Source of the DNA: Candidatus Paracaedibacter symbiosus
GTDB taxonomy: Bacteria; Pseudomonadota; Alphaproteobacteria; Paracaedibacterales; Paracaedibacteraceae
Length of the DNA stretch: 24,000 bases
NCBI RefSeq assembly: GCF_000757605.1
Contig: NZ_JQAK01000001.1
Span: forward strand, 1,142,782 to 1,166,781
Direction: 5' to 3'
The notes under the pieces were generated by a model, which worked only from the letters and a program-made list of their open reading frames with translations, did no database searches and was not told where the DNA came from. Positions 2,555 to 23,870 of this stretch are shown one piece after another. How positions within the stretch are numbered: the stretch's first letter is position 1; every line of letters starts with the position of its first letter. A program made the position numbers and the translations under genes.

Positions 2555-3690
2555 GGATACTGCTCCCCTTTCCAAGAATTGACATAGTTGAGATCCTCAA
2601 CGGACTCAGCCACCTTTGATAGATCAAGTCCATCCCGTGTGTCAATCATTACCGCAACCTCATCAGTTTCTTTGCGAATATTATTTTTTCCAGCCTTAAA
2701 AGCGCCTGGGTGAGGACCATGGATAAAACCACTGGGATGAAAGGTCATCATGCCGGGGTGGATATTATCGCGGCTAAAAAATTGCCCCTTATGATAAAAA
2801 ATCACCTCATCATAATCATCATTACTGTGATAAAAGGGAACTTTTAAGGCACCTGGGTCGGACTCAATGGGTCGAGGACAAAAGGTGCAAACCACAAACC
2901 GATCACTCGTAAAAGTTGTATGCGCCGAGGGCGGCAAATGGGCGCGGTGACTCATTAAAGGGCGAATGTCGCGCCAATTAATCTTAACTGGAGCTAAATT
3001 GCCATGCCAACCAACAGCATCCAAAGGATTAAACTTGAAAGTAATGGTGGAGATTTCCTGGCGACGCTTGACTTTTACTTGCCAGTGTTGCTGTGTCTGC
3101 TGTTGCTGAGCCTTAAAAGCCTCATTAATCTGAGGGGTGAGGAGCGTGGCTGGATCAAAAATCGCATGTCCCCCCACAATACCTTTTTCGGGCAGTTGAT
3201 AATGGCCGTCCGTGGCCTCAATCATCAAAATTTTTAAAGGTTTATGGACTTTAAGCCACCACTGAGTGCCGCGTGGCAACATCACATAATCACCCTCACT
3301 AAACTCTAAATGGCCATAGTCGCAAAAGAGATCAGCTGCACCCTCATGGAGGAACAATAGCTCGTCTCCATCGCTGTTACGCACCAAATGATCCATGCTT
3401 TTACAAACCCGTCACCACCGAATCTGGCAGTGAGAGTTGCTTAAAATAGGTGCTGCCTGCCAGGGGCTTACCGGTGTTGCATCAATCTTCAGCAGATCAA
3501 ACGCATGGGGTTTGAGAGTCCCTTCAATAGACGACCAGGCCGTGGGCGCATGTGTGTGATACATGTGCGTTGCGGGGCCAAAAAATCCTTCTTTACTGAT
3601 TTCGCGTTCATAAGTGCCTGCGGGCAAATCAGCATGAGCCTGTTTCGACGACAAACCTTCAGAGAGAGGAAATTGAATCCAAGACTTCAT
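2551..3690 (-). pseudogene. hmgA: homogentisate 1,2-dioxygenase interrupted by one in-frame TGA
   Basis: The 92-aa ORF (3412-3690) and the 281-aa ORF (2551-3396) are in the same frame. They are separated only by TGA (3412-3414) and 5 sense codons: ..CQIRW*RVCKSMDHLVRNSDGDELLF... The joined product of about 379 aa has HmgA-like blocks (RNSDGDELLF, GDYVMLPRGT, FHPSGFIHGPHPG). AAGGAG lies 9 nt upstream of the ATG at 3690. Confidence 0.8.
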
Positions 3691-8400: not shown

Positions 8401-8997
8401 GTGCTTTTTTCTATCGGCCAAGCGCTTCGCGCTAACGGTTGCCGGGTCATTTATTTTGCTGGCTATAAAAAAATGGAAGATCGTTATAAAATAGCGGAGA
8501 TCGAAATGGCAGCTGATCAGATTGTTTGGACCTGCGATGAAGCCCCAGGGTTTATTCCTTCCCGTCCCCAGGACTTAACCTTTGTGGGGAATATCGTTGC
8601 AGCCATGGAAGCTTATGCCAAAGGTGATTTAGGTCAAAGGTTAGTACCGCTGCATGATGTGCAACGTCTCGTTGCTATTGGATCTGACCGCATGATGGCC
8701 GCCATTGCCAAAGCCCGTAAAACCATTCTCAAGCCTTACTTAGATCCGGATCACATTGGCATTGGGAGCATCAACTCTCCGATGCAATGTATGATGAAAG
8801 AAATATGCGCTCAGTGCCTCCAACGTCACGTTGAACCTCTCACCGGCGAAGAAAAGATTATCTATTCTTGTTCGCAACAAGACCAAAAACTTGACTGGGT
8901 TGACTGGGATAATCTGAATATACGGTTGCGCCAAAATAGCGTTCAAGAAAAACTCACGAAAGAATGGATTCGTTATTGCTTGGAAATCGATACCTAA
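5461..8997 (+). CDS. large multidomain Fe-S flavoprotein: uncharacterised N-terminal domain + GltD/NfnB-like domain + PyrK/NfnA-like domain
   Basis: The ORF is uninterrupted for 1178 codons. The GltD-type Cys pattern is CIWCHH..C..GCPLEEKI..NP..GHRICNDCMKACI. Dinucleotide folds are VVGTGPAGF and VVIGGGLTAIDTA. The C-terminal third resembles a PyrK/FNR-like module (RLTPTIVEV.., LLAGGGLGNAVL) ending in C-x6-C-x2-C-x17-C. The start is uncertain: TTG 5461 has AAGGAG 8 nt upstream, and the alternatives ATG 5530 and 5548 lack an SD. Confidence 0.7.
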   Translation: MAYAPHNDSIWFLKSEPSTTFNYMSFGLKMSASTNFLSLSFGLSFTDLYHNSGLKKLDTCFQDFLSGQDPELGVAYQFHRQNPTDDKSASELFLTLAPYVEDFIGELFQIRHEINALQQQHQTLAVVPQIKRQFVQRQALRKYSKDIAATLDGSQIREQLEKSIHPFTEITFARIVDEWLKNESAHQEQLNLAAQYAAWATLTPAGRYFHRQDILFQQPEKLDFQNLIPFHLMDDFKQGLLDHRRNRVGFDLTDAGFSRLKALDQANYCIWCHHQSKDSCSKGLKPKTEATDKFIKNWAGINLTGCPLEEKISEMNESKAKGFTLAALAIATIDNPMVAATGHRICNDCMKACIYQKQEPVNIPGLETQILKDVLELPWGFEIYSLLTRWNPLNLKRPLPMAESGYKVLVVGTGPAGFTLAHHLLNDGHAVVAIDGLKIEPLPVNQSGVDIQGQRHPFAPIYSVKELQEKLGARITGGFGGVAEYGITVRWDKNYLKMIRLLLERRENFALFGGIRFGGTLSIDQAFAMGFDHIALCMGAGSPTLIPMKNSLAIGVRQASDFLMALQLTGAAKEESIANLQVRLPAVVIGGGLTAIDTATETMAYYPLQVEKFYKRYQQLCQTQNETQLRSQWLESELVIVDEYLTHGAAIVAESQAAAIEGRQPNFQRLINEWGGVTVAYRRDVTQAPSYTLNHEEVAIALEEGIQILDHAIPISVNIDAAGQAESLTIQHLDQEQILPARTILVAAGTKPNINLKYDELNYLSFAGNSFQAYDEAGHPVTPQKLAKPDTPHVLMSILDNQKSISFFGDMHPSFAGNVVKAMGSAKQGYPVISRMLHRRPVDKEVPAPLLIDSLNQQLRATVYAITRLTPTIVEVTIHAPLAARNFQPGQFYRLQNFETFAPVRKGTRFVMEGLALTGASVDLEKGLLSTIVLEMGGSSNLCTLLHPGDPVVLMGPTGAPTEIPHNETVLLAGGGLGNAVLFSIGQALRANGCRVIYFAGYKKMEDRYKIAEIEMAADQIVWTCDEAPGFIPSRPQDLTFVGNIVAAMEAYAKGDLGQRLVPLHDVQRLVAIGSDRMMAAIAKARKTILKPYLDPDHIGIGSINSPMQCMMKEICAQCLQRHVEPLTGEEKIIYSCSQQDQKLDWVDWDNLNIRLRQNSVQEKLTKEWIRYCLEIDT

Positions 8998-9510: not shown

Positions 9511-10242
9511 TTAAATATTGTGATAATTACGCTTTAAAGCTTCCCATTCTAATTGGCCCGCGGGACGAAAATCATCACCAAATTGCTGAGCTGTATGTTC
9601 AGCAACCTCAGCTGACAAAATTTTTAACGGCTGGTAAGTGCTTTGCGCCACCAACTGCGCTGCGGCTGCTTTTTCTAAAAAAAACATCAAGGTAAAGGCT
9701 TCGCCAATCGTGCGGCCAGCCGTTAAGAATCCGTGATTTTTCAAAATCATCACCCGCTTGTTACCCAGATCTTCTAGCAACCGCGGCCTCTCGTCTTCCG
9801 ACAGAACAATCCCTTCATACTCATGGAAAGCGATCCGATTGTAAAATCGACACGCATGTTGAGTTAAGGGGAGCAATCCACACTCAAGCGCGGACAATGC
9901 CATTCCTGCCTCAGAATGGGTGTGAATCACACATGTGATTTCCGGCCTGGCGCCATGAATCGCTCCATGAATCATATAACCCGCAAGATTAATCCGAGCA
10001 TTCACGGGGGCAATGACATTCCCAGCTAAATCAATTTTGACGAGATTTTCGGGAGTGATTTCTTCAAATAGCAAGCCAAACTGATTAATCAAAAAATACT
10101 CTGTTCCTGGAATTTGCAAGGAAATGTGGGTATAAATTAAGTCGGTCCACCCTAATTTAGCGGCCAAGCGATAGCAAAAGGCCAGTTCTTCACGTGCTTG
10201 ACCTTCAACGCTCGACCAGGACTTAGAAGCCACTATTTGCAT
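9511..10242 (-). CDS. class II aldolase/adducin N-terminal domain family protein
   Basis: 243 aa starting from MQIVASK. Family blocks are GWTDLIYTHISLQIPG and VIHTHSEAGMALS. AAAGGGA lies 4-8 nt upstream of the ATG at 10242. The track start at 10269 has no RBS. The gene overlaps the end of the ABC gene by 20 nt. Confidence 0.75.
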   Translation of the reverse strand: MQIVASKSWSSVEGQAREELAFCYRLAAKLGWTDLIYTHISLQIPGTEYFLINQFGLLFEEITPENLVKIDLAGNVIAPVNARINLAGYMIHGAIHGARPEITCVIHTHSEAGMALSALECGLLPLTQHACRFYNRIAFHEYEGIVLSEDERPRLLEDLGNKRVMILKNHGFLTAGRTIGEAFTLMFFLEKAAAAQLVAQSTYQPLKILSAEVAEHTAQQFGDDFRPAGQLEWEALKRNYHNI

Positions 10243-12064
10243 GTCCCTTTTGCCTGATGTTTTTGACATCTAGGGAATCCGTAAATTGCAAAGTTGCGAG
10301 CCGACGATACAAACCGTCTTCACTAATCAGCTCCGCGTGGGTCCCCATTGCCTCAATCCGCCCTTCGTTCAAAACAACGATGCGATCTGCCTTCAACACG
10401 GTGGCGAGACGATGCGCCACTACTAACGTGGTACGATTTGACATTAATTTTTTAAAGCTTTCCTGAACCAAAAATTCACTTTCCGCGTCAAGTGCACTGG
10501 TTGCCTCATCAAGCAATAAAATCGGTGCGTCTCGTAAAAACACCCGAGCGATGGCCAAGCGTTGCTTTTGCCCACCTGACAACCGCACGCCCCGTGTCCC
10601 GAGGGGAGTATGGATTCCTTGCGGTAAAGTTTGGATAAAATCGACCATATTAGCCGCTTCGGCTGCTTTCCAGACTTCAGATTCACTGGCATTGGGTCGG
10701 CCAAACAAAATATTGTCATAGAGCGAAGCTGAATAAATCATCGGGTCTTGGGGAACAATGCCAAAGCGTTCCCGCAAATCTTCAACCCGCACCTCTTTTG
10801 TATCCACCCCATCTACATAAATACTCCCCGATAAGGGGTCAAAAAAGCGCAATAATAGCGATAAGATAGTGCTTTTCCCTGATCCAGATGGGCCGACAAT
10901 CGCCAGCTTTTCTCCCGGCGCAATCGACAACGACAAATTCTTCAACACTTGGACTGTGGGATTATTGGAATAGGCGAAGGTGATGTTATGGAAGGCCACA
11001 ATGCCGCGAGAAGGTGCCGGCAACTTGCGGGGTGCCTCGAGCACCAAAACAGAGGACTTAGCCTGGAGAATATCGGAAAGCCGTTCAAAAGCCCCTGCTG
11101 CGCGTTGCATGTCGGCATAAATCTCGCTAAAGGAGGCCAGCGATCCAGCCGTCATCACAGCATAAAAAATAAAAGAGGATAATTCACCTGCGGTTAAGCC
11201 TTCTGTCAACACATCATAACCACCGATCCATAACACAAAACAAACACCAGAAAACACTAATATCATCACAATAAAGGTGAGCCACGATTTCATCCGCATC
11301 CGAGTGACGGCACAATAAAAATTTGATTCACTAAGCTTTGCAAAATTGTGGATATCACTGAGTTCGCGGTTAAAGGCATAACAGGCGCGAATATTACTTA
11401 ACGTTTCCTCTAAATAGCCAGAAAGGTTAGCCAACTGTTCTTGCGTTTGGGTCGAGAGCTGTTTGACGCGTTTACCAAAAATCAAAATCGGTACCAACAC
11501 CACTGGGACAATCAAACAAGTAAGAAGGGATAGTTTTGCTGAAGTAGTCAGCATCAAAGCCATCCCCCCAACAAACATAAGCGCATTTCGAATGGCCAAA
11601 GCGCCCGAAGTCCCAATCAAAATCTGAATTAAGGTTGTGTCGGTTGTCAAGCGGGCGGTCAATTCACCCGGACGAATCATCTCATAATAGGCAACATCTA
11701 ATTGCAATAAATGGCGATAAAGTTTCTGGCGAAGATCCGTCATGATTCGTTCTCCTAACCAGGAGACATAATATGTCCGGCCAAAACTCGCAAATGCCAT
11801 CAACACCACACAGCCTAACATGAGGATGACCGTTGAGGTCAGAGCTTGCATATTTTCTGTGGCAAATCCACTATCAATTAATTGACGCAAGCAACAACCA
11901 AGCCCCAAGAGGGACGCGGTGGCGAGAACAAGGAATAAGCTTGCCAGCCAAAATTGCAGTCTGTAGGGTTTCAAAAAAGGAGCCAATTGCTTTAAAATCG
12001 ACAGATTTTTGCTTTTCTCGCGCTCTGCGATCTCAGACATTTCAACAAAACTTCTTTCACGCAT
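10223..12064 (-). CDS. ABCB-type half transporter (fused TMD-NBD exporter, MsbA/Atm1/Mdl1-like)
   Basis: 613 aa with a 6-TM N-terminal half. NBD motifs are Walker A GPSGSGKST, signature LSGGQKQR, Walker B ILLLDEATSALD and H-loop VVAHRL. The ATG at 12062-12064 overlaps the cyaY stop (TAATG). The subfamily cannot be fixed by eye. Confidence 0.8.
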   Translation of the reverse strand: MRERSFVEMSEIAEREKSKNLSILKQLAPFLKPYRLQFWLASLFLVLATASLLGLGCCLRQLIDSGFATENMQALTSTVILMLGCVVLMAFASFGRTYYVSWLGERIMTDLRQKLYRHLLQLDVAYYEMIRPGELTARLTTDTTLIQILIGTSGALAIRNALMFVGGMALMLTTSAKLSLLTCLIVPVVLVPILIFGKRVKQLSTQTQEQLANLSGYLEETLSNIRACYAFNRELSDIHNFAKLSESNFYCAVTRMRMKSWLTFIVMILVFSGVCFVLWIGGYDVLTEGLTAGELSSFIFYAVMTAGSLASFSEIYADMQRAAGAFERLSDILQAKSSVLVLEAPRKLPAPSRGIVAFHNITFAYSNNPTVQVLKNLSLSIAPGEKLAIVGPSGSGKSTILSLLLRFFDPLSGSIYVDGVDTKEVRVEDLRERFGIVPQDPMIYSASLYDNILFGRPNASESEVWKAAEAANMVDFIQTLPQGIHTPLGTRGVRLSGGQKQRLAIARVFLRDAPILLLDEATSALDAESEFLVQESFKKLMSNRTTLVVAHRLATVLKADRIVVLNEGRIEAMGTHAELISEDGLYRRLATLQFTDSLDVKNIRQKGHANSGF

Positions 12065-12378
12065 TAGAACTCGACTGTTTCCTTAAATAGTTGCTGCATA
12101 TCCGCACTCAAAATTTCAAACAATGACAATTCAGTACGAGTCGATACCCACGCGGTGCCATTCCATTGAAAATGGTGTGCCCCCGTTGCAGGTGATGATA
12201 ACCACATTTGATTGGTTGGGCCATGAAAATTTAGTAAAAAAGTTTGACGCCTATCGTCGCAGATGGTCAATTGAAGGCCGGTAAGCTCTATATCGAGATC
12301 AGTCTGAGCTTCTAAATGATCAGCAAGATGGTGAAGAGTTTGTTGAGCGATTGAATCAAAACTATCGAAAGACATCAT
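12064..12378 (-). CDS. cyaY: frataxin homolog CyaY (iron-binding Fe-S assembly protein)
   Basis: 104 aa. It aligns by eye along its length with E. coli CyaY as recalled: an acidic N-terminal helix (LHHLADHLEAQTDLDIE), then NQMWLSS..GAHHF, with a comparable length. Confidence 0.8.
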   Translation of the reverse strand: MMSFDSFDSIAQQTLHHLADHLEAQTDLDIELTGLQLTICDDRRQTFLLNFHGPTNQMWLSSPATGAHHFQWNGTAWVSTRTELSLFEILSADMQQLFKETVEF

Positions 12379-12397
12379 TGCATATGCTTTGGTTGAA

Positions 12398-12473
12398 TGG
12401 TGGAGCCAAGGAGGATCGAACTCCTGACCTCTACAATGCCATCGTAGCGCTCTCCCAGCTGAGCTATGACCCC
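12398..12473 (-). tRNA. tRNA-Ala (anticodon GGC), CCA encoded
   Basis: The reverse complement folds as a 76-nt cloverleaf: acceptor GGGGUCA/UGGCUCC with the G3:U70 alanine identity pair, D arm GCUC/GAGC, anticodon stem CUACG/UGUAG with loop AUGGCAU, and T arm AGGAG-UUCGAUC-CUCCU, ending in ACCA. Confidence 0.95.
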
Positions 12474-13588: not shown

Positions 13589-14479
13589 TTAAGAGATTAA
13601 TGCTTTATGGATAGTCAATGCGTTATGACGAATCATCTCCATGTAAGTTTTAGCGGGTGACTCTGAGGCCTTGGAATCCGACAAGGAATCGGCGTACAAA
13701 ACCCCTCCAATGACAACATTGGCTTCCATAGCGATTTGCTCAATCAATTTACGAGATGACAGATTTTCAATAAAGACAGCGTGAATATCTTGCTTTTTAA
13801 TCGTTTTAATAAGCTCGGCAATTTTGGCTGCTGATGGTTCTGCATCAGTACTCACCCCCACAGGAGATAGGAATTCAATCCCATAGGCAACTCCAAAATA
13901 AGCAAAGGCATCATGGGTGGTAATCACCTTACGTTTGTCAGATGGGATGGCATTAAACTCAGCTTGTACCCAAGCATCCAAGGCCTCAAGTTCTTTTATA
14001 TAGTTAAGCGCTCTTTTTTCGAGGATGTCTGTTTGCTGAGGTAATTTTTGCTGCAATGCTGTTTTAATTTCACCAACGTACAAAATAACGTTTTTCACAT
14101 TATGCCAGGCATGGGGATCTTCAGCCGCCACACCGTTGGAATCATGTAACACGCGAGATTTAACCTGTTTTGCAGCAATGATAACTTCGCTTTTATAACC
14201 AGAATTAGAAATTAAACGGTCAAACCATCCTTCAAACCCAAGACCATTGACGATTACAAGGTCAGCCTGATTTAGTTTTTTGACATCGAGCGGTTTAGGC
14301 TGATAAACATGAGGGTCGGCATTTTCGGGAACGATGATGTCAACCTCTACATCATCCCCACCAATTTGACGCGCAAGATCGCCCAGAACAGAAAAGCTAG
14401 CCACAACTTTGAGTTTAGCCTCAGCCGACGAAGCAATCACTCCACAGGCTAATATAAGGCTTATAAGTTGGTTGATCAT
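13589..14479 (-). CDS. periplasmic metal-binding protein, cluster A-I SBP (ZnuA/TroA/PsaA family)
   Basis: 296 aa with a signal peptide (..ASSAEA|KLKV). Family blocks are DPHVYQP, DPHAWHN, TTHDAFAYFG and LYADSLS, giving a His/His/His/Asp ligand pattern. There is no His-rich loop. Confidence 0.8.
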   Translation of the reverse strand: MINQLISLILACGVIASSAEAKLKVVASFSVLGDLARQIGGDDVEVDIIVPENADPHVYQPKPLDVKKLNQADLVIVNGLGFEGWFDRLISNSGYKSEVIIAAKQVKSRVLHDSNGVAAEDPHAWHNVKNVILYVGEIKTALQQKLPQQTDILEKRALNYIKELEALDAWVQAEFNAIPSDKRKVITTHDAFAYFGVAYGIEFLSPVGVSTDAEPSAAKIAELIKTIKKQDIHAVFIENLSSRKLIEQIAMEANVVIGGVLYADSLSDSKASESPAKTYMEMIRHNALTIHKALIS

Positions 14480-15657: not shown

Positions 15658-15827
15658 TAGTCACTCCAAAAATATCATAAAATTAAAAAAAATTTCAGTT
15701 TATTGTGATATCAATATAAAATATTATGTCCTCCACGGGACAATTATGGTCACCGCATTGCTGCTAATCGCGATGTTCGGGAAAATGATCGATTTATTTT
15801 TAGACAGTTCGTAGCTCATGATAGCCA

Positions 15828-15856
15828 TTTTTAATAAATTGATAATAATCTGTCAA
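15828..15856 (-). promoter_or_regulatory. candidate promoter for brnQ
   Basis: The minus strand reads TTGACA (15856-15851), a 17-nt spacer, then TAAAAA (15833-15828). This would give a leader of about 160 nt. Confidence 0.3.
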
Positions 15857-15963
15857 TAAATTATATGGGGTTGGTAATTTTTTTTCGCAACACAATCTTT
15901 AATTCAAATAATAGTTGGGAGAGGAATTGGAGAGGAAAATTTGGCATTTTTTAGTCAAATTTA

Positions 15964-16887
15964 TTACAAAATATCGCCCCACTCTCGTTTGCTTATTTTT
16001 TTATAAAGATCTTTATGTTTACGAGCGATAATAAAACGTTTCAGATGATGGGGTTCGCACACATCAAAAATAGAATGACCAGATCGGTGAATCGGATTTT
16101 TAACAATACGCAAACCGGGGAACTCAGTTGGATCTTTAGACAGTAAGAGATAACAAAATTTCTCATCTTCAAAGTTCAAAGCCGCTTTTTTAAATGCGCG
16201 ATGCAATCTGGTGCGCGGCAATCTTACCTTAAAATGACACCAAGGGTCTTTCGCCATCGGGCAAGTTTGGTGATGAGAACAAGGAGCAGCAATCCGATAT
16301 CCAGAGGCCAGCGCCAGACCACGCAAGCCCAACAACTGCTTAAAGCATAATGGAGTCCCTGGCATTACAATCAATACATAGCGACTCTGACTTAGCAGAA
16401 CTCTCTCAAGGACTTGGCTCTGCTCCTCCCCCTTCAACTCATTCAAAACATAGGATAAAATGACAAAATCTGTGGGTTGATCGATGACATATTCTTTTAG
16501 ATTTGCGCGTAAGTAGCTACCCGCCTTACTTAAAGGCTCAAGCAGTTGCCTGGCGGCAGCAAGAGCTCGTCCATCCTGTTCCACCAATTTGAAGTGGGTC
16601 ACATTTGGAAAATACGTCAAAGCAGTTAGACTTGCTGCTCCAGTCCCTGCTCCTAAGTCAAGAATTGAGGTGGGGGAAAAGTCGGCGGGGAGTTCTCGAA
16701 AGATCTGAGAAATAGCAGCAACGGTTGCGGGCATCCGCGCAGCTGCATAGGCTTTTACTTCCCCATCGCTTTGAAATCCAGGGATATAGTTTTCCTGACG
16801 ATAGCGGTGGCTAAGCCCCTGGTAAGCTTTGAGAAGCTGATCATCCGAATATCCGGCAAGCAGTTCTTCTAACCACTGATCAAGCAT
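15964..16887 (-). CDS. Rsm22-family SAM-dependent methyltransferase (bacterial homolog of mitochondrial Rsm22/METTL17)
   Basis: 307 aa. The SAM motif I is ILDLGAGTGAAS. The Rsm22-type block is APCSHHQTCPMAKDPWCHFKVRLPRTRLHRAFKK..FEDEKFCYLLLSK. The ATG lies 2 nt after the iscX stop. Confidence 0.75.
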   Translation of the reverse strand: MLDQWLEELLAGYSDDQLLKAYQGLSHRYRQENYIPGFQSDGEVKAYAAARMPATVAAISQIFRELPADFSPTSILDLGAGTGAASLTALTYFPNVTHFKLVEQDGRALAAARQLLEPLSKAGSYLRANLKEYVIDQPTDFVILSYVLNELKGEEQSQVLERVLLSQSRYVLIVMPGTPLCFKQLLGLRGLALASGYRIAAPCSHHQTCPMAKDPWCHFKVRLPRTRLHRAFKKAALNFEDEKFCYLLLSKDPTEFPGLRIVKNPIHRSGHSIFDVCEPHHLKRFIIARKHKDLYKKISKREWGDIL

Positions 16888-16889
16888 AT

Positions 16890-17084
16890 CTAGCCTCGCT
16901 CATCCAGCCAGGCCATTTGAATCGCTTCCAAAATCTTCTCATTAGAGCGATTTGGCTCATCTGTAAAACCCGGCAGTTGTTGCACCCATTGCCAAAGCGT
17001 TGTAAAGCGTACTTGCAAGATGTCCACGTCTGGATGCATCTCTTCCAACTCAATGGCAATCTCGTGGATATCTGTCCAACGCAT
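16890..17084 (-). CDS. iscX: Fe-S assembly protein IscX
   Basis: 64 aa starting from MRWTDIHEIAIEL. It matches recalled E. coli IscX blocks (WTD..EI, VRFT..W, SNEKILEAI..WLDE). The ATG at 17084 lies 2 nt after the fdx stop. The track start at 17165 would overlap fdx. Confidence 0.85.
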   Translation of the reverse strand: MRWTDIHEIAIELEEMHPDVDILQVRFTTLWQWVQQLPGFTDEPNRSNEKILEAIQMAWLDERG

Positions 17085-17086
17085 AC

Positions 17087-17416
17087 TTAGACCATCATAT
17101 TCCGTGTTGCAGCAGGCAGGCGCACAACCAAACCATCCAATTCTTCTGTCATAATAATTTGACAACCCAAGCGAGATGTATGGGTTAAGCCAAAAGCCAA
17201 ATCCAACATATCCTCTTCATCCTCCGAGGCTGTGCTGAGCAAATCATACCATTCTGACTCAACAATCACATGACAGGTTGAACAAGCAAGTGAACCTTCA
17301 CAGGCCCCTTCTAAATCAATTTTATTACGGTGAGCAATTTCTAACACTGACAAGCCCAAGGGAGCATCAACTTCCACAGAGTGGCCATCCCGCACAATAA
17401 ATGTCATTTTTGCCAT
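17087..17416 (-). CDS. fdx: ISC-type [2Fe-2S] ferredoxin (adrenodoxin-like)
   Basis: 109 aa with the ligand pattern [12 protein letters not shown] ... RLGCQI. The ATG lies 1 nt after the hscA stop. Confidence 0.9.
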
Positions 17417-17417
17417 T

Positions 17418-19208
17418 TTATAATTCTCCTATTTTTTGACCGGCAAGCGCCCGCTGAATACTGCGGTTAATGCGGCGTTCGGCAAATGAAAAACTTAAAG
17501 TTTCTAATTCTTGCATGCCCTGTTTTATCGCATTCCGATCCTCAAATACCACTATTTTTTCAAGGGACTCAATCGCTTGCTGTAAAGCTTCCTGCTCTTC
17601 TATAGTTAGCAAGTCCCCATCCTGGACAATCGCCCCTTTGAGCTGGACTAACATTTGACGAGCGTCCACTCTTGCTTCAATCAACAATCGCTGTTCCATA
17701 TCAGCGGCTCCATGTTCAAAATTATCGCGCAAATGCTGAATCATCTCGGCATCGCTTAAGCCATAAGCTGGATTAATTTCAATCTGTTGACTTTGTCCCG
17801 TCGCCATTTCCTTGGCCATCACAGTCAACAATCCATCCGCATCTAATTGAAAAGTGACGCGTACCTTCGCTGCACCTGCTGCCATCGGCGGGATGCCAGT
17901 CAGCGTAAACTGACCTAAGGATCGACAGTCTTTCACTAGCTCTCGCTCCCCTTGAAGCACATGAATTTGCATGGCGGCCTGACCATCTTGATAGGTGGTA
18001 AATTCTTGGGCAATGGCAACAGGAATTGGCGTATTACGCTCAATAATCTTTTCCACAATACCACCCATGGTTTCAAGACCTAACGATAACGGCGTGATAT
18101 CTAATAGCAATGTATCCGAGCCCCGCGTTAAGGCTTCTGCTTGCAACGCTGCTCCTAAGGCCACCACTTCATCGGGATTGATATCGGTTAAAGGAATTTT
18201 ACCAAAAAAGGAAGCCACTTCCTGGCGGACGACCTGCAGGCGTGTCGAACCACCCACCAGAATAACGCCATCGATATTACGCGGATCAAGCCCTGCATCC
18301 CTTAGTACCTGGCCACAAATCTGAAGCGTTTTTGCCACAAGCAGCTGACATAACTCAGTTAATTTTTGTTGGGTTAGAGTGATTGTATGCCCTTTAATCG
18401 CAAGCGACGTCATCTGGTGGTTTGCCAACATTTCTTTGAGTTCACGGGCTATCGTTGGCGTAATGCTATCGGCAACGGTTGGATAGGTTTCTTGTAAATA
18501 ATGCTGCACAAGATAGTCCACATCATCGCCGCCCAGAAGGGTATCCCCGCCCGTGGCCAACACCTGAAAGACACCGCGAGTGAACTTCAATAATGAGACA
18601 TCAAATGTACCACCCCCAAAGTCATAGACGGCATAAACACCTTCCACTTGTTTGTCAAGACCGTACGCCAAAGCAGCAGCGGTTGGTTCATTGATGAGGC
18701 GCAAAACCTCTAACCCGGCGAGTTTTGCGGCTTGTTTTGTTTCCTGACGTGCGGCTTCATCAAAATAAGCTGGTACTGTAATCACCGCTTTATGGACGGT
18801 TTGCCCCAGAACATTTTCGGCATTTTGGCGAATCACTTTTAAGATCTCAGCAGAAATCTCAGAAGGGGTTAGCTCTCGATCCTTAATTTTCAATTTAAGT
18901 GCTTTATGGGAAACAACCGCATCTGGGTAATGCGACATTAAGTCTTCAGGAACTGTTTGTCGGCCAATGAGGCGCTTAATCGATTGAATTGCGAAGGCCC
19001 TTTTTTCCCCAACGACAACTTCATCACCATAACTGACAATCGACGGCAACAACTTTTTTCCTGTGTCAAAAGCAAGGACTGTTGGCGTTTGGTTTGTTGC
19101 ATAAGCGACAACAGAATGGGTTGTGCCAAGGTCAATACCGATGGCGATTTCTTTTTCAGCTTCGTGAAGGTCGGGTGTCATTCCCGGTTCGACAAGTTGG
19201 ATAAACAT
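17418..19208 (-). CDS. hscA: Fe-S cluster assembly Hsp70 chaperone HscA
   Basis: 596 aa. The N-terminus [12 protein letters not shown] resembles HscA (E. coli MALLQISEPG). Hsp70 motifs [19 protein letters not shown] and ILVGGSTR are present. Confidence 0.9.
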
Positions 19209-19373
19209 TATTTTTTAAAACTACTATACTCATCAGGGTTGGAATTGCGGATTTATACTATCGAGATAGGCGGCGACTTTTATTGTGGTGTGACGCGAAT
19301 AGTTGTCCCTCTTTAAGGAGCGTCAAGATAAAATTGAGCCTATACATCGATGGGGAGAAATTCTTAGCTTCAG

Positions 19374-19859
19374 TCATGATGAGTATTCCAGTTCACTCAA
19401 CGTTTTTTGTGTATAAATCAGATTTAGGTAACAGTGAGCCAGCTGATCATCTGGCGCGGTATCAAAACATTGAAGACAATCCTGCAGACGGAGCGTGAGC
19501 TCGTCTTTTAGGGCATGCAACCCGGTGCCTTCTTGAATCTGCTCACGCCATTCAAGAACTTGTCCCAACAAATCAGACGCTGGAATTGTCGCACCACTCG
19601 TCCCCGGCACAGGGATATTTTTTGCCTTTAAAAATTCTTCTGCGCGGGTGGGGACATTTTTCAGACGCTGATAGGCCTCATTCAAAGTAATCGCTTGTTG
19701 CGCCGCAAGCCGCTTTTCAAGATCACTACGCCCAACAAATAAATCCGGATGCACTGTTGCTTGCGCCGCTAAATAGCGTTGGTCCAAAGCAACTACGTCT
19801 AAATCAAACTGAACCGGTAAGCCAAAGAGGGCGAACATATTAGATTTAATTCCTGTCAT
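19374..19859 (-). CDS. hscB: Fe-S cluster co-chaperone HscB (J-domain)
   Basis: 161 aa. The J-domain has the HPD tripeptide (ATVHPDLF). The gene sits between iscA and hscA. AAGAGG lies 8 nt upstream of the ATG. Confidence 0.85.
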   Translation of the reverse strand: MTGIKSNMFALFGLPVQFDLDVVALDQRYLAAQATVHPDLFVGRSDLEKRLAAQQAITLNEAYQRLKNVPTRAEEFLKAKNIPVPGTSGATIPASDLLGQVLEWREQIQEGTGLHALKDELTLRLQDCLQCFDTAPDDQLAHCYLNLIYTQKTLSELEYSS

Positions 19860-19985: not shown

Positions 19986-20321
19986 TTAAACATGGAACGA
20001 TTTACCACACCCGCAACGACCTTTTTCATTGGGGTTTTTAAAGACAAATCCCGATTGCATTTTTTCCTCAACAAAGTCCATTTCAGTACCCAGGATAAAC
20101 ATAATCGCCTTGGGGTCAATCAACAGAGTAATCCCCTCTACTTCGACCATCTCATCAAAAGCTGTTTTTTCATCAGCGTATTCCAAGGTATAAGACAAGC
20201 CAGAGCATCCTTTAGTGCGGATGCTAATCCGAATCCCGGCTGACTCTTTACCTCGTTGATCGAGGAGAGCTCTAAGCCTGAGAAGTGCTGCCTCTGTCAC
20301 TTGTATGGGTACTGTTCGCAT
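19986..20321 (-). CDS. iscA: A-type Fe-S carrier IscA
   Basis: 111 aa with the HesB/IscA Cys pattern KGCSGLSY ... CGCGKSF. Confidence 0.9.
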   Translation of the reverse strand: MRTVPIQVTEAALLRLRALLDQRGKESAGIRISIRTKGCSGLSYTLEYADEKTAFDEMVEVEGITLLIDPKAIMFILGTEMDFVEEKMQSGFVFKNPNEKGRCGCGKSFHV

Positions 20322-20345: not shown

Positions 20346-20741
20346 TTAAGCAATCTTCGTGATTTGATTTTTTTGCTTATAGTCATCAATCGCTGCTTTA
20401 ATTGCATCTTCTGCCAAAATGGAGCAGTGAATCTTCACCGGCGGTAATGCCAAATGCTGAGCAATGTCAGAGTTCTTAATGGCATGCGCTTCGTCGATTG
20501 ACTTGCCACGAACCCATTCAGTCACCAGAGAACTGGAGGCAATCGCCGCGCCACAACCAAATGTCTTGAATTTGGCATCTTCAATAATCCCAGCTTCATT
20601 GACTTTAATTTGCAATTTCATCACATCGCCACAAGCAGGCGCCCCCACTAAGCCCGTGCCAACGGAGGCATCAGACTTGTCAAAGGACCCCACGTTACGT
20701 GGATTTTCGTAGTGATCAATAACTTTATCATTATAAGCCAT
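20346..20741 (-). CDS. iscU: Fe-S cluster scaffold IscU
   Basis: 131 aa. Blocks are YENPRNVG, GAPACGDVMKL, FGCGAAIASSS and the LPPVK..HCS motif. Confidence 0.95.
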   Translation of the reverse strand: MAYNDKVIDHYENPRNVGSFDKSDASVGTGLVGAPACGDVMKLQIKVNEAGIIEDAKFKTFGCGAAIASSSLVTEWVRGKSIDEAHAIKNSDIAQHLALPPVKIHCSILAEDAIKAAIDDYKQKNQITKIA

Positions 20742-20790: not shown

Positions 20791-22032
20791 TTAATGAGCA
20801 GCCCATTGAATTGAGGCAATATCAATTCCCTCTTGTGCCATTTCCCAAAGCGGGCTCATTTCTCTCAGCTTTTCAACCGCTGTAATCACCTTCTCTATGG
20901 CCAAATCAACTTCAGCCTCAGTACTAAACCGACCAAAACCAAAACGGATCGACGTGTGCGCTAATTCTTCACCTACACCAATCGCCCGCAAGACATAAGA
21001 CGGCTCAAGGGAAGAAGAGGTACAAGCAGAGCCAGAGGAAACGGACAGATCCTTAATCCCCATCATTAGTCCTTCTCCTTCAACATAGGCAAAGCTTAAG
21101 TTCAAGTTACCTGGCACTCGTTGGTAACGATCGCCGTTCAAGTATACTTCTGGTAACCGCTGCATAATCGCCTCATAAAAACGATCTGATAACTTTTTGG
21201 CATGAACGGTATCTGCGTCCATTTCTTTGACCATAATGGCGCAAGCTTCACCCAAACCAACGCAAAGCGGCGGCGCCAGCGTCCCAGAGCGCATACCTCG
21301 TTCTTGACCACCCCCATTAATCATTGCTTGCAAGCGTACCCGCGGTTTACGACGAACAAATAAGGCGCCTATCCCCTTTGGACCATAAATTTTATGTCCA
21401 GAAATGCTCATCAGATCGATGTTCATTGCCTCCACATCCAGCTCAATTTTACCAACTGCTTGCGCTGCATCTGTGTGAAAGAAAACACCCTGTTCACGAC
21501 AAATTTTACCAATTTCCGCCAAAGGCTGGATGACACCAATTTCGTTATTCACCGCCATGATGGAGACAAGAACAGTTGAGTCTTTAATGGCTGCTTTAAG
21601 AAGGTCCAAATCAATCAAGCCATTTTGCTGGACCGGCAGATAAGTCACCTCAAAGCCTTCTTGCTCCAGATGGCGACAGGTATCAAGCACACACTTGTGT
21701 TCGGTCGTACACGTAATAATGTGATTTTTTCTATCTTTATAGAACTGAGCCACTCCTTTGATTGCCAAATTGTTTGACTCAGTCGCGCCACTGGTAAAGA
21801 CAATTTCCCTGGCATCGGCTTTAATAATGGCCGCTACTTGGTCCCGTGCTGCTTCAACAGCATTTTCAGCATACCAACCTTCAGGATGACTTCTAGAGTG
21901 GGGATTGCCGAAATGTGTCGTGAAAAACGGCAACATTTTTTCCAACACCCGAGGATCACACGGAGTGGTTGATTGATAATCTAAATAAATCTGCTGAGAA
22001 GCTGGTTGTTTTGTCATACTACAAGCTGTCAT
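20791..22032 (-). CDS. iscS: cysteine desulfurase IscS (class I, PLP-dependent)
   Basis: 413 aa starting from MTACSMTKQ. The PLP lysine is in [10 protein letters not shown] and the catalytic loop is [16 protein letters not shown]. The ATG at 22030-22032 overlaps the upstream stop (ATGA), and GAGGAGG lies 8 nt upstream. The track start at 22089 is rejected. Confidence 0.9.
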
Positions 22033-23147
22033 TGCTTGATCCTCCTCGTTTGTTCGCCGCCATGGGTTCGATAATAAAGGTTTTCCCATGTCTCAATAAA
22101 ATGCTGGATCTCTACTTGCGTTGTCTGCAATCCCAAGCTAATCCGAATACTATTATCAATATCTTTTCCATCTACACCCATCGCCTGCAACACATGGGAT
22201 GGTTTCACCTTGCCAGACGAACAGGCAGACCCGGCAGACAATGAAATGCTATTTAAATCAAAATGCATCACTTGCACAGTATTCACCACCCCCGGCATTG
22301 TTAGATTCACTGTATTGGGGAGGCGCGGCACCTGGGCGCCAAAAATCGCAATATCCTTAAAATTGGCCCGCAGGGATGCTTCAAGATCTTGCCTTAAGCT
22401 TGCCACCTCAATCCAATCATTGTGACGACAAGCCTCAATCGCTGCCCCTAAGCCTACAATGCCAAGCACATTCTCGGTACCCGCCCGGAAATAACGTTCT
22501 TGCCCACCGCCAGTAATTTGAGGACGTAAAGCCCGGTTGGGATTAACCACTAAGGCTCCAACTCCTTGTGGACCGCCAATTTTGTGAGCTGAGAGCGAAA
22601 TGTAATCCAATCCTAACTGTTGCCAGTCAAAATCAATTTTACCCACCACCTGAACTGCATCGCTATGCATCAATGCTTGATACTTTCGACACAGACCAAC
22701 AATTTCTTGCAACGGCTGCATGACACCTGTTTCGTTATTGGCTGCCATCACCGACACTAAGCACGGCCGCGTTACCTGCTGCAACTCAGTCTCCAAGGCT
22801 TCCAGATCAATAATCCCCTCCGCGGTCACCGGGCAGATTGTCAAATCATTGCGCGCCTTTAACACAGAATCATGCTCAATTGCCGATGTAATGACTGGTC
22901 CATTGAATCCTTTTAATACCAGATTATTCGCCTCAGTAGCCCCACTCGTAAAGACCACCTGAGCCGGAGTTACAGCAAAATAATCAGCAACCTTAGCGCG
23001 AGCTTTTTCCACATATTGGCGAACCCTTCGGCCATCGTTATGAGTAGAAGACGCATTCCCACACACGTCCAATATCTCAAGCATTGCCTGTTTTGCTTGC
23101 CAACAAAGGGGAGTTGTTGCGTTATGATCAAGATAAATCGGCGACAT
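22029..23147 (-). CDS. second class I cysteine desulfurase (NifS-like, short C-terminus)
   Basis: 372 aa. The PLP lysine is in [10 protein letters not shown] and the catalytic loop is [16 protein letters not shown]. It is about 40 aa shorter than the adjacent IscS at the C-terminus. The ATG overlaps the iscR stop (TAATG). Confidence 0.85.
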
Positions 23148-23608
23148 TATTTACGAGCCTCCTCAAAAGCTTGAAAGCTAAACCGCCCCAATCCCAATAC
23201 GCGGCGATCACAAATATCAGCCAGAGTGACTTTTGCCAAAAATAGATGGATCACCGCCCCTAACTCTTCCCACAAATCATGGGTTAAACAGCGCATACCA
23301 CTATTTTGGCAGCCTTTGGGGGAATGATTTTCACAGCGTGTCGTTTTCACCGGTCTATCCACGGCGTGAATCACATCTAAAATTCGAATTTCCTGGGCGG
23401 GATGATTCAATAAATAACCGCCAGCGGACCCCCGACTACTTTTAACCAGACTAGTTTTTTTAAGTTTGTTAAATAATTGTTCTAAATAGGGAAGAGGTAA
23501 TTCCTGGCGCAATGCTATTTCTGGCAAAGATACAGGGTGGTCTTTGCCATGTGTGGCAAGGTCAACCATTGCCATTACTGCATAACGCGCTTTTGTACTT
23601 ACTTTCAT
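23147..23608 (-). CDS. iscR: Rrf2-family Fe-S regulator IscR
   Basis: 153 aa starting from MKVSTKARYAVMAMVDLA (Rrf2 wHTH). The cluster ligand pattern is C-x7-C-x6-C-x2-H (TRCENHSPKGCQNSGMRCLTH). GAGGA lies 5 nt upstream of the ATG at 23608. The track TTG at 23623 is less likely. Confidence 0.85.
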   Translation of the reverse strand: MKVSTKARYAVMAMVDLATHGKDHPVSLPEIALRQELPLPYLEQLFNKLKKTSLVKSSRGSAGGYLLNHPAQEIRILDVIHAVDRPVKTTRCENHSPKGCQNSGMRCLTHDLWEELGAVIHLFLAKVTLADICDRRVLGLGRFSFQAFEEARK

Positions 23609-23837
23609 CCTATTCCTCGCCAAACGTCTCGATATTTAGGTGCATTCCTACTCAAGATCTATTATTCCGTGACAATCTTTCTCCTCTATTCCTAAGAGGA
23701 TTACCATGTCTTCTAACGCAGCCTCACCCTAACGTATCTTCCTGGCTTAAAATCTCTAGTTCACAGATTCAAAAAGCCGTGTTAGACTCTGTCTTAGCAA
23801 GGTGATATTATACCTAATTCTAGTTTGTCTTTAGTTA

Positions 23838-23866
23838 TAAATAACTATTCTGACTAGTTTGGTCAA
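23838..23866 (-). promoter_or_regulatory. candidate isc operon promoter overlapping operator box 1
   Basis: The minus strand reads TTGACC (23866-23861), a 17-nt spacer, then TATTTA (23843-23838). An alternative perfect TATAAT lies at 23812-23807 but lacks a good -35. Either choice implies a leader of about 190-220 nt before iscR. Confidence 0.25.
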
Positions 23867-23870
23867 GTAT
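23846..23870. promoter_or_regulatory. Rrf2-type operator, box 1 (IscR type-1-like / TGA-N9-TCA)
   Basis: tattcTGACTagtttgGTCAagtat matches 19 of 25 positions of the E. coli IscR type 1 consensus ATASYYGACTRWWWYAGTCRRSTAT (counted by hand). It also fits the RirA IRO pattern TGA-N9-TCA. Confidence 0.5.

What the first reader, a model, noticed from the sequence alone, without database searches (positions are those of the whole stretch)
15964..17084. Rsm22/METTL17-family methyltransferase appended to the 3' end of the ISC operon
The gene at 15964-16887 starts 2 nt after the iscX stop, on the same strand as the rest of the isc operon. The following 300 bp is AT-rich spacer, so it reads as the last cistron of iscR..iscX. 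Its product has a SAM motif (ILDLGAGTGAAS) and the Rsm22-type Cys block C-S-H-H-Q-T-C-P...W-C-H-F (about 16231-16290), plus further Cys residues downstream. Published work on the mitochondrial homolog METTL17 reports an Fe-S cluster on this cysteine region and a role linking Fe-S supply to mitoribosome small-subunit maturation. A bacterial homolog physically embedded in the ISC operon would be genomic-context evidence that this coupling predates mitochondria. I cannot tell from memory whether this linkage has been described.
Basis: partly seen in the sequence, partly recalled or inferred. Interest (0 to 1): 0.72.

Follow-up and report, generated by a model that had tools for sequence, protein, structure and literature searches.

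The report
Rsm22/METTL17 gene ending an ISC operon
In this amoeba-symbiont genome, the bacterial counterpart of the mitochondrial ribosome-assembly factor METTL17 is the last gene of the operon that builds iron-sulfur clusters, and this arrangement recurs in one alphaproteobacterial lineage but not in other bacteria.

Summary
On the minus strand, 15964-16887 encodes a 307-aa Rsm22/METTL17-family protein (Pfam E 5e-57; 100% identical to the annotated protein of Candidatus Paracaedibacter symbiosus). Its ATG lies 2 nt after the iscX stop, with a GAGG ribosome-binding site inside iscX. It ends the run iscR-nifS-iscS-iscU-iscA-hscB-hscA-fdx-iscX. The SAM motif is intact. The four [4Fe-4S] ligands of human METTL17 (C333/C339/C347/C404) align with C203/C209/C217/C277, which are essentially invariant in 219 bacterial homologues. 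The AlphaFold model matches METTL17 over the full length (TM 0.76-0.83). An IscR type-1 operator lies upstream of iscR and is conserved in relatives.

The adjacency recurs in 14 of 17 loci of the closest clade (Rsm22 identity down to 38%), while the downstream flanks differ. It is absent from 157 of 160 blindly sampled loci elsewhere, including 12 other alphaproteobacterial MAGs. Eukaryotic sequences show no special affinity to the linked clade.

The linkage is therefore real and probably operonic, and I found no published description. It is lineage-specific. The family-wide cysteine conservation, already noted in print, supports an ancient Fe-S dependence; the operon context does not. Cluster binding, the ribosome role and co-transcription are all inferred.

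The parts
15964..16887 (-). rsm22: 307-aa Rsm22/METTL17-family SAM-methyltransferase-fold protein, terminal gene of the isc run
   Evidence: ORF. Pfam PF09243 E 5e-57. 100% identical to P0001, 'small ribosomal subunit Rsm22 family protein [Candidatus Paracaedibacter symbiosus]'. METTL17 8csp_7 at E 1.2e-14 for the single sequence and 6.9e-37 for the profile. AF2 pLDDT 94.9. Foldseek TMq 0.76-0.83 to METTL17.
16630..16665 (-). SAM-binding motif I, ILDLGAGTGAAS (residues 75-86; D77, G79, G81, G83)
   Evidence: D77/G79/G81/G83 are invariant in alignments A1 and A6 and in at least 212 of 219 bacterial sequences.
16231..16281 (-). Cys loop C203-x5-C209-x7-C217-H-F: three of the four predicted [4Fe-4S] ligands
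   Evidence: Aligned with human C333, C339 and C347 (numbering checked; ligand identity from PMC11046306). 219 of 219 conserved.
16057..16059 (-). C277, predicted fourth cluster ligand, from the C-terminal beta domain
   Evidence: Aligns with human C404. 218 of 219 conserved.
16888..16897 (-). iscX/rsm22 junction: GAGG (16897-16894), iscX stop TAG (16892-16890), 2-nt gap, then the rsm22 ATG
   Evidence: Read from the sequence. No promoter- or terminator-like site on the minus strand between 16888 and 17600, except a weak hairpin inside fdx.
16890..17084 (-). iscX
   Evidence: TIGR03412 E 3.7e-31; PF04384 E 2.5e-30.
17087..17416 (-). fdx ([2Fe-2S] ferredoxin)
   Evidence: PF00111 E 5.7e-13.
17418..19208 (-). 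hscA
   Evidence: Translation. HSP70 Pfam hits on the orthologues in L001 and L002. 75% identity by tblastn.
19374..19859 (-). hscB
   Evidence: PF07743 HSCB_C E 1.6e-5.
19986..20321 (-). iscA
   Evidence: Translation. Orthologues carry PF01521.
20346..20741 (-). iscU
   Evidence: Translation. Orthologues carry PF01592.
20791..22089 (-). iscS. The ORF is listed from 22089. The likely start is M20 at 22032, which overlaps the stop of the upstream gene (ATGA).
   Evidence: TIGR02006 E 1.6e-209, with the alignment starting at residue 32. Orthologues are 413-415 aa.
22029..23147 (-). second, NifS-like class-V cysteine desulfurase
   Evidence: PF00266 E 4.9e-63. Below the cut-off of every NCBIfam equivalog.
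23147..23623 (-). iscR (Rrf2 family)
   Evidence: Translation. Orthologues carry PF02082.
23850..23870 (-). IscR type-1-like operator ATACTTGACCAAACTAGTCAG (GAC-N7-GTC core), containing a TTGACC hexamer
   Evidence: Single match in the window; 0.01 expected by chance. Conserved upstream of iscR in L001, L002, L083, L085, L086, L087 and L170. The consensus ATASYYGACTRWWWYAGTCRRSTAT is printed in PMC3899308 and others.
15658..15963 (.). 306-bp AT-rich spacer after rsm22, marking the end of the gene run
   Evidence: GC 0.33. Promoter-like TTGACA-18-AAAAAT at 15856..15827 (-) and a weak terminator-like hairpin at 15742..15727 (-). No unusual fold (z 0.65).

Best explanation
rsm22 is the last cistron of an IscR-controlled isc operon (iscR-nifS-iscS-iscU-iscA-hscB-hscA-fdx-iscX-rsm22) in Candidatus Paracaedibacter symbiosus. 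The arrangement is shared by a deep clade of related alphaproteobacteria. The product is a compact bacterial orthologue of mitochondrial METTL17/Rsm22. It has a class-I SAM methyltransferase fold with an intact SAM site, a Cys loop and a C-terminal beta domain that together supply four thiolates for a [4Fe-4S] cluster. It most likely acts on the small ribosomal subunit (16S rRNA), as an assembly factor, a methyltransferase, or both, and its folding and RNA binding likely depend on the cluster. As part of the isc transcript, it would be made together with the machinery that matures it. Its supply would then follow Fe-S demand: holo-IscR represses the operon, and cluster shortage or oxidative damage derepresses it. 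Shown here: homology, motif and ligand conservation, fold, gene order, tight spacing, recurrence, and the IscR box. Inferred: cluster binding, ribosomal target, co-transcription and the regulatory logic.
For: Family and fold: Pfam Rsm22 E 5e-57. PDB profile search gives METTL17 at 6.9e-37, T. brucei mt-SAF1 at 1.8e-27 and yeast Rsm22 at 1.8e-20. The AF2 model has pLDDT 94.9 and pTM 0.92. The best structural matches are METTL17 chains at TMq 0.76-0.83, followed by trypanosome Mettl17/SAF1. Ligands: C203/C209/C217/C277 correspond to human C333/C339/C347/C404 and are conserved in 219/219/219/218 of 219 bacterial sequences. The SAM motif is invariant. Operon: 2-nt gap, GAGG 6 nt upstream of the ATG, and no promoter- or terminator-like site at the junction. 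All upstream genes are tightly packed on the same strand. The IscR type-1 box at 23850-23870 has a chance expectation of 0.01 and is conserved in seven relatives. Recurrence: rsm22 lies directly after fdx or iscX, on the same strand with gaps of 0-122 nt, in L001, L002, L005, L083-L087, L090, L104 and L170. One extra ORF (L169) or an AbiE module (L172) intervenes in two more. Rsm22 identity in these loci is 38-65% and HscA identity goes down to 48%. Downstream neighbours differ: brnQ, ECH, BON, a competence gene, MFS, F-box and Fer4. One member of the clade is a Paracaedibacteraceae MAG. Biology of the homologues: METTL17/Rsm22 carries a [4Fe-4S] cluster needed for binding the mitoribosomal small subunit and is lost when ISC fails (PMC11046306, PMC9892005, PMC12375894).
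Against: There are no expression data, so co-transcription is inferred from spacing only. No bacterial Rsm22 has been characterised, so the cluster, the RNA target and any methylation activity are extrapolated from mitochondria. Three clade members lack the linkage: L089 and L091 follow znuC-znuB, and L171 follows pilin genes. Elsewhere in bacteria the gene has no conserved neighbourhood and no Fe-S or ribosomal context. The linkage is therefore not required for function. The NJ grouping of the linked sequences has weak bootstrap support (9 of 100 for the exact set).
Confidence: 0.6

Rival explanations
1. Neutral hitch-hiking. In the common ancestor of this reduced-genome endosymbiont lineage, rsm22 landed behind the isc operon. 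It has stayed there by inheritance, using a convenient housekeeping promoter, and the position reflects no functional coupling.
For: The linkage is limited to one clade: 3 of 160 blindly sampled loci, all within that clade. There are three exceptions inside the clade. Insertions are tolerated between fdx and rsm22, namely an AbiE module in L172 and a Ferric_reduct ORF in L169. In other bacteria the neighbours are heterogeneous.
Against: The adjacency persists down to 38% Rsm22 identity and 48% HscA identity while the downstream flank changes at least seven times. Gaps are mostly 0-54 nt with overlapping or abutting stop and start codons. The product of the appended gene is, from its homologues, an obligate client of the machinery encoded upstream, which makes pure coincidence less likely.
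Confidence: 0.22
2. In this lineage Rsm22 works within the ISC pathway itself rather than, or in addition to, on the ribosome. It might stabilise or modify ferredoxin, IscX or another ISC component, or act as a cluster acceptor or carrier.
For: The gene always sits directly after fdx or iscX. In yeast, Rsm22 overexpression restores ferredoxin Yah1 and bypasses frataxin loss (PMC12191369). METTL17 overexpression partly rescues FXN loss (PMC11046306, as described). L169 has a Ferric_reduct ORF and L170 a Fer4 ferredoxin next to rsm22. An LYK motif (residues 294-296) occupies the position of the METTL17 LYR hand-off motif.
Against: The full-length structural match to the rRNA-bound METTL17 includes the C-terminal RNA-binding beta domain. 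The family is widespread in phyla whose sampled loci carry no ISC genes nearby. The yeast rescue may be indirect. The LYR/K-like motif is present in only 24 of 46 clade members and 60 of 173 others.
Confidence: 0.1
3. The adjacency is real but rsm22 is transcribed independently, from a promoter inside iscX or fdx, so it is a neighbour and not an operon member.
For: Internal promoters are common in long operons. Some relatives have larger gaps (122 nt in L084, 1.66 kb with a TA module in L172). The consensus scan is crude.
Against: The gap is 2 nt, with the ribosome-binding site inside iscX. No sigma-70-like site lies on the minus strand between 16888 and 17600. Coding regions abut or overlap in L002 and L083.
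Confidence: 0.08

Closest known systems
Human METTL17 (PDB 8csp and others), a [4Fe-4S] mitoribosomal small-subunit assembly factor
   Same: Same Pfam family. Same MTase fold, Cys loop and C-terminal beta domain (TMq up to 0.83). Identical CX5CX7C...C ligand pattern. SAM motif GxGxG retained. LYK stands where METTL17 has LYR.
   Different: It has 307 aa and no targeting sequence, N-terminal extension or C-terminal extension, against 456 aa. Sequence identity is about 20%. It is encoded inside the operon for the ISC machinery, whereas METTL17 is an unlinked nuclear gene. Cluster binding and ribosome binding are untested here.
Yeast Rsm22 (PDB 8d8j, 8om2)
   Same: Same family and the same four Cys (C373/C379/C400/C513 according to PMC11046306). 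Functionally dependent on ISC (PMC12375894).
   Different: [quoted passage not shown] The window protein keeps every SAM-motif residue.
Other bacterial 'small ribosomal subunit Rsm22 family' proteins (Chlamydiae, Actinobacteria, Acidobacteria, Clostridia, other Alphaproteobacteria)
   Same: 31-42% identity, the same length class (about 300-335 aa), invariant Cys ligands and SAM motif.
   Different: Their genes are not next to isc genes and have no conserved neighbourhood. The commonest upstream neighbours are MFS (6 of 121), AhpC/TSA (6 of 121) and UDG (5 of 121).
Canonical iscRSUA-hscBA-fdx-iscX operon of E. coli and Pseudomonas, with IscR type-1 autoregulation
   Same: Same gene content and order, an Rrf2 regulator first, and a matching type-1-like operator upstream.
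   Different: It contains an extra NifS-like desulfurase between iscR and iscS. It carries an extra terminal cistron (rsm22) whose product is predicted to be a client of the pathway, not a component.
RlmD/RumA, the E. coli [4Fe-4S]-containing 23S rRNA methyltransferase
   Same: An rRNA-directed SAM methyltransferase with a non-radical-SAM [4Fe-4S] cluster, proposed to sense oxidants (mentioned in PMC11452305).
   Different: Different family and cluster-binding domain. It did not appear among the sequence or fold matches. As far as I know it is not isc-linked (from memory, not tested).

Membership tests
Rsm22/METTL17 (PF09243) | Scores above the curated family threshold over the whole model | tested here: met
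   193.9 bits against a cut-off of 23; profile positions 3-273 of 275.
Rsm22/METTL17 (PF09243) | Class-I SAM methyltransferase core with glycine-rich motif I and an acidic residue after strand 2 | tested here: met
   D77-L-G79-A-G81-T-G83 and E103, invariant or nearly invariant. Rossmann-type strand/helix pattern in the model. MTase folds are the next-best Foldseek hits.
Rsm22/METTL17 (PF09243) | Cys loop inserted in the MTase sheet (APC-x-H-x3-CP ... C) plus a fourth Cys from the C-terminal domain, corresponding to the [4Fe-4S] ligands C333/C339/C347/C404 of METTL17 | tested here: met
   A201-P-C203-S-H205-H-Q-T-C209-P ... W-C217-H, and C277. Alignment and numbering. Ligand identity from PMC11046306. 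Loop description from PMC8171064.
Rsm22/METTL17 (PF09243) | Full-length structural correspondence, including the C-terminal OB-like beta domain | tested here: met
   Foldseek against PDB: 8csr_7 TMq 0.83 and 8csp_7 E 1.5e-20. T. brucei 6sg9_F1 and 9hny_F1 at TMq 0.68-0.69. I could not read the model coordinates, so the Cys-Cys distances were not measured.
Rsm22/METTL17 (PF09243) | Actually binds a [4Fe-4S] cluster | not testable with these tools
   Requires anaerobic purification with UV-vis, EPR and iron quantification.
Rsm22/METTL17 (PF09243) | Binds the small-subunit rRNA (head/body interface, h31) during assembly | not testable with these tools
   Known only for mitochondria (PMC9892005). 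I found no study of a bacterial homologue.
Rsm22/METTL17 (PF09243) | LYR-type hand-off motif near the C-terminus | tested here: inconclusive
   L294-Y295-K296 aligns with METTL17 LYR. A [LIVMF]Y[RK] motif occurs in 24 of 46 clade members and 60 of 173 other bacterial sequences.
ISC operon (iscRSUA-hscBA-fdx-iscX) | Gene content and order on one strand | tested here: met
ISC operon (iscRSUA-hscBA-fdx-iscX) | IscR type-1 operator in the promoter region | tested here: met
   ATACTTGACCAAACTAGTCAG at 23850-23870 (-); chance expectation 0.01. Conserved in 7 relatives. Binding itself is untested.
ISC operon (iscRSUA-hscBA-fdx-iscX) | rsm22 is co-transcribed with iscX | not testable with these tools
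   Only indirect evidence: a 2-nt gap, an SD inside iscX, and no promoter- or terminator-like site at the junction.
ISC operon (iscRSUA-hscBA-fdx-iscX) | The adjacency recurs in other genomes | tested here: met
   14 of 17 loci with known context in the closest clade. Outside that clade, none of the remaining 155 loci from the blind scans is linked; 157 of the 160 scan loci are unlinked, 127 of them with at least 1.5 kb of upstream sequence.
Radical-SAM enzymes | CX3CX2C cluster motif | tested here: not met
   The Cys residues are at 181, 203, 209, 217, 245 and 277, so there is no CX3CX2C. The same point is made for METTL17 in PMC11046306.

The most novel reading that the evidence does not exclude
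The 'Fe-S checkpoint on small-subunit assembly' described for mitochondrial METTL17 already operates in bacteria. In the Paracaedibacteraceae lineage it is hard-wired into the IscR regulon, so that ribosome production is tied to Fe-S supply by two links: a cluster-dependent assembly factor, and its co-transcription with the ISC machinery. A stronger version is that Rsm22 also feeds back on the pathway through the ferredoxin encoded next to it, which would mirror the yeast Rsm22-Yah1 rescue.
Probability: 0.25. Interest if true: 0.7.

Novelty: new variant of a known kind. Interest (0 to 1): 0.5.

Why it matters
METTL17/Rsm22 was recently recognised as the link between Fe-S cluster supply and mitochondrial translation, with relevance to Friedreich ataxia. 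The role of its bacterial homologues is unknown. A conserved operon placing the bacterial orthologue behind fdx/iscX under an IscR box is independent genomic evidence that the protein is functionally tied to the ISC system in at least one bacterial lineage. It also supplies compact, SAM-competent proteins of about 300 aa as candidates for biochemistry: cluster type, RNA target and methylation activity. These could settle whether the family's methyltransferase function is real. Two things limit the value. The linkage is restricted to one clade of largely uncultured endosymbionts, and it does not show that the coupling is ancestral to mitochondria.

Tried and rejected
1. I tried to place the eukaryotic proteins. 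A profile of human, yeast and T. brucei fragments searched against the protein collection returned only mammalian METTL17, which was useless for diversity. In an NJ tree with human METTL17 alone it sat beside scattered non-clade sequences without support. Summed BLAST scores show no affinity of the human, yeast or trypanosome sequences for the isc-linked clade. The origin question stays open.
2. Foldseek against afdb50 was not available.
3. Andreini et al. 2016, on operon-based prediction of human Fe-S proteins, is not held, so I could not check whether METTL17 was predicted there.
4. Rfam found nothing in the isc leader or in the spacer after rsm22. The spacer does not fold better than shuffles.
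5. The consensus promoter scan calls no minus-strand promoter upstream of iscR, so the position of the IscR box relative to the promoter is unresolved.
6. The first Pfam tally of neighbours failed on size. It was repeated without ORFs longer than 650 aa. Naive ORF calling in high-GC loci may have mis-called some neighbours.
7. Radical-SAM identity was rejected because there is no CX3CX2C motif.
8. The ABC exporter next to cyaY is not Atm1-like. Its best half-transporter match is ABCB10.
9. A repeat search over the operon found only the paralogy between the two desulfurase genes.
Full report
**What is in the sequence.** The gene lies on the minus strand at 15964-16887, starts with ATG and encodes 307 aa. 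Upstream on the same strand are:
- iscX (16890-17084)
- fdx (17087-17416)
- hscA (17418-19208)
- hscB (19374-19859)
- iscA (19986-20321)
- iscU (20346-20741)
- iscS (20791 to about 22032)
- a second NifS-like desulfurase (22029-23147)
- iscR (23147-23623)

The identities rest on Pfam and NCBIfam hits and on the orthologous genes in related contigs. Read on the minus strand, the junction is GCGAGGCTAGATATG. GAGG lies at 16897-16894, the iscX stop TAG at 16892-16890, then two bases, then the ATG. The gene is followed by 306 bp of AT-rich DNA with GC 0.33. That spacer holds a promoter-like site for the next gene and only a weak hairpin. No promoter- or terminator-like site separates rsm22 from iscX.

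**Organism.** The protein is 100% identical to 'small ribosomal subunit Rsm22 family protein [Candidatus Paracaedibacter symbiosus]'. This organism belongs to Holosporales, Paracaedibacteraceae.

**Family membership.**
- Pfam Rsm22 scores E 5e-57 over essentially the whole model.
- Against PDB sequences the single protein finds human METTL17 at 1.2e-14.
- A 17-sequence bacterial profile finds METTL17 at 6.9e-37, T. brucei mt-SAF1 at 1.8e-27 and yeast Rsm22 at 1.8e-20.
- An AlphaFold2 model built on 75 homologues is confident, with pLDDT 94.9 and pTM 0.92.
- Its best structural matches are the METTL17 chains of human mitoribosome assembly intermediates (TM 0.76-0.83 normalised to the query). 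Trypanosome Mettl17/SAF1 comes next, and generic methyltransferases follow only after those.

**Cluster ligands.** Ast et al. give the METTL17 [4Fe-4S] ligands as C333, C339, C347 and C404 (PMC11046306). I rebuilt the numbering from the HMMER alignment. These residues align with C203, C209, C217 and C277, and the CX5CX7C spacing is identical. Across 219 non-identical bacterial sequences gathered here, the four positions are Cys in 219, 219, 219 and 218.

**Other motifs.**
- The SAM motif D77-x-G-x-G-x-G is equally conserved. Yeast Rsm22, by contrast, has lost SAM binding (PMC9892005).
- There is no radical-SAM CX3CX2C motif.
- LYK (residues 294-296) stands where METTL17 has its LYR motif. Such a motif is present in only about half of the clade and a third of other bacteria.

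**Is the adjacency more than chance?** I tested recurrence in three ways.

1. Contigs encoding the closest homologues. P0006, P0004, P0013, P0018, P0024, P0033, P0036, P0044 and P0050 (65-38% identity) all carry rsm22 on the same strand directly after fdx or iscX, at the end of an iscR-nifS-iscS-iscU-iscA-hscB-hscA-fdx run. The gaps are 0-122 nt. In L169 one Ferric_reduct ORF intervenes. In L172 an AbiE toxin-antitoxin pair is inserted between fdx and rsm22. P0021 and P0034 are not linked.

2. Two blind scans with degenerate patterns returned 160 loci from many phyla, one scan of GTDB species genomes and one of JGI metagenomes. tblastn with all the window's ISC proteins found ISC genes upstream in only three of them: L005 (an alphaproteobacterial MAG), L090 and L104. 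The other 157 lack them, and 127 of those have at least 1.5 kb of upstream sequence. The unlinked set includes 12 other alphaproteobacterial MAGs, Chlamydiae, Streptomyces and Amycolatopsis, Acidobacteria, Chloroflexi and Clostridia.

3. A Pfam tally of the immediate neighbours in the unlinked loci shows no conserved context. The most frequent families are MFS (6 of 121), AhpC/TSA (6 of 121) and UDG (5 of 121). No Fe-S assembly or ribosomal family appears.

**Shape of the linked clade.** In an NJ tree all linked sequences fall in one group of 46. This group also contains L089 and L091, where rsm22 instead follows znuC-znuB. Bootstrap support for the exact group is poor (9 of 100), so I treat monophyly as likely but not shown. 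One cluster member is annotated as a Paracaedibacteraceae MAG. Within the clade 14 of 17 loci with known context keep the linkage. Meanwhile HscA identity falls to 48% and the downstream neighbour changes repeatedly (brnQ, enoyl-CoA hydratase, BON, a competence gene, MFS, F-box, Fer4). That pattern argues for retention of the isc-rsm22 junction specifically, beyond general synteny.

**Regulation.** 227-247 nt upstream of the iscR start there is a sequence ATACTTGACCAAACTAGTCAG with a GAC-N7-GTC core. It fits the published IscR type-1 consensus ATASYYGACTRWWWYAGTCRRSTAT (string found in PMC3899308 and three other papers). It is the only match in the window, with 0.01 expected by chance. The same box is conserved upstream of iscR in seven related loci. 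This supports IscR autoregulation of the whole run. If rsm22 is co-transcribed, it also supports Fe-S-responsive expression of rsm22. The exact promoter is unresolved.

**Most likely mechanism (confidence about 0.6).** The product is a bacterial METTL17 orthologue that needs a [4Fe-4S] cluster to fold and to bind small-subunit rRNA, and it has kept a working SAM site. Being the terminal cistron of the isc operon, it is synthesised with its own maturation machinery and is up-regulated when holo-IscR falls. The homology, motifs, fold, gene order, recurrence and operator are shown here. Cluster binding, the ribosomal target, co-transcription and the regulatory consequence are inferred from the mitochondrial literature (PMC11046306, PMC9892005, PMC10681725, PMC12375894) and from the behaviour of IscR in Gammaproteobacteria.

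**Rivals.**
- Neutral hitch-hiking in a reduced-genome lineage (0.22). This is favoured by the narrow distribution and the tolerated insertions. It is disfavoured by retention across deep divergence and by the client-machinery relationship.
- A role inside the ISC pathway (0.10). This is suggested by the constant position next to fdx and by yeast data that Rsm22 overexpression restores ferredoxin and bypasses frataxin loss (PMC12191369). It is disfavoured by the full structural match to the rRNA-bound protein and by the family's presence at loci with no ISC genes nearby.
- Independent transcription (0.08).

**The 'predates mitochondria' claim.** The context evidence does not carry it. The linkage is a derived feature of one alphaproteobacterial clade. 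Human, yeast and trypanosome sequences score no higher against that clade than against Actinobacteria, Acidobacteria or Chlamydiae. The human sequence is not placed with the clade in the NJ tree. My attempt to obtain diverse eukaryotic sequences failed, so the origin of the mitochondrial gene remains untested here. The data that do support an ancient Fe-S dependence of the family are the near-absolute conservation of the four Cys across bacterial phyla. That point was already made from an alignment of six orthologues 'spanning bacteria, fungi, and humans' by Ast et al..

**Novelty.** The protein family, its cluster and the existence of bacterial homologues are all known, and this very protein is already named in NCBI. 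I could not find any description of the isc-operon linkage. I searched for METTL17 or Rsm22 together with operon, bacterial, alphaproteobacteria, Paracaedibacter and 'Rsm22 family', and read the main papers. I rate the finding as a new variant of a known kind: an ISC operon extended by a predicted client gene. It is moderately interesting as a lead for biochemistry and for the evolution of the Fe-S/translation link.

Noticed in passing
window 23756-23812 (-), and the same position in L001, L002, L083, L086, L170: Between the IscR box and the iscR start there is a second conserved leader element (CCTTG(C/T)TAAGACAGAGTCTAACACGGCTTTTT...GTGAACTAGA). In the window it is preceded by a perfect TATAAT at 23812-23807. 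It has no Rfam match. It could be the real promoter/5' UTR or a second regulatory site.
   Followed up: partly
L089 1218-3127; L091 3412-5897; window 13589-14479: In two members of the same Rsm22 clade the gene follows a Zn/Mn-type ABC transporter (znuC-znuB, PF00950) instead of isc. In the window a znuA gene lies 1.5 kb downstream of rsm22. This is a second metal-related context for the family.
   Followed up: partly
L172 5550-6957; L169 6470-6991; L170 8115-8456: The fdx-rsm22 junction varies. An AbiEi/AbiEii toxin-antitoxin pair is inserted in L172. A Ferric_reduct-domain ORF is inserted in L169. A Fer4 ferredoxin and CarD follow rsm22 in L170.
   Followed up: no
window 10223-12473 (-): A tRNA (12401-12473) is followed by cyaY/frataxin (12064-12378), whose end overlaps the start of a 613-aa ABCB-type exporter (10223-12064). 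The exporter's best half-transporter match in the PDB is mitochondrial ABCB10 (E 5e-105), not Atm1. This is a frataxin-ABC pair 3.6 kb from the isc operon.
   Followed up: partly
window 22029-23147 (-) and 20791-22089 (-): Two tandem class-V cysteine desulfurases. The first is NifS-like and scores below every NCBIfam equivalog cut-off. The second is a bona fide IscS. The pair is conserved in all related isc loci. The iscS ORF as listed probably starts 19 codons too early; M20 overlaps the upstream stop.
   Followed up: partly
window 16890-17084; L083-L087, L169, L170: iscX is present in the window, L001, L002, L005 and L104 but absent from the other linked loci, where rsm22 follows fdx directly. 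iscX is thus patchily retained within the lineage.
   Followed up: no
window 2551-3690 (-): Homogentisate 1,2-dioxygenase looks split. The 281-aa ORF matches only the second half of HgmA_N plus HgmA_C, and an adjacent 92-aa ORF (3412-3690) has no hit. It is possibly a frameshifted pseudogene within an HPPD-HGD-FAH tyrosine-degradation cluster.
   Followed up: no
window 5461-8997 (+): A very long ORF (1178 aa, TTG start) has only weak Fer4_20 and Pyr_redox_2 hits in its middle part (GltD-like). About 300 N-terminal and 400 C-terminal residues are unassigned.
   Followed up: no
window 19209-19373: There is a 165-nt non-coding gap between hscB and hscA, where relatives (L001, L002, L083) have abutting genes. 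No repeat or RNA family was detected there.
   Followed up: partly
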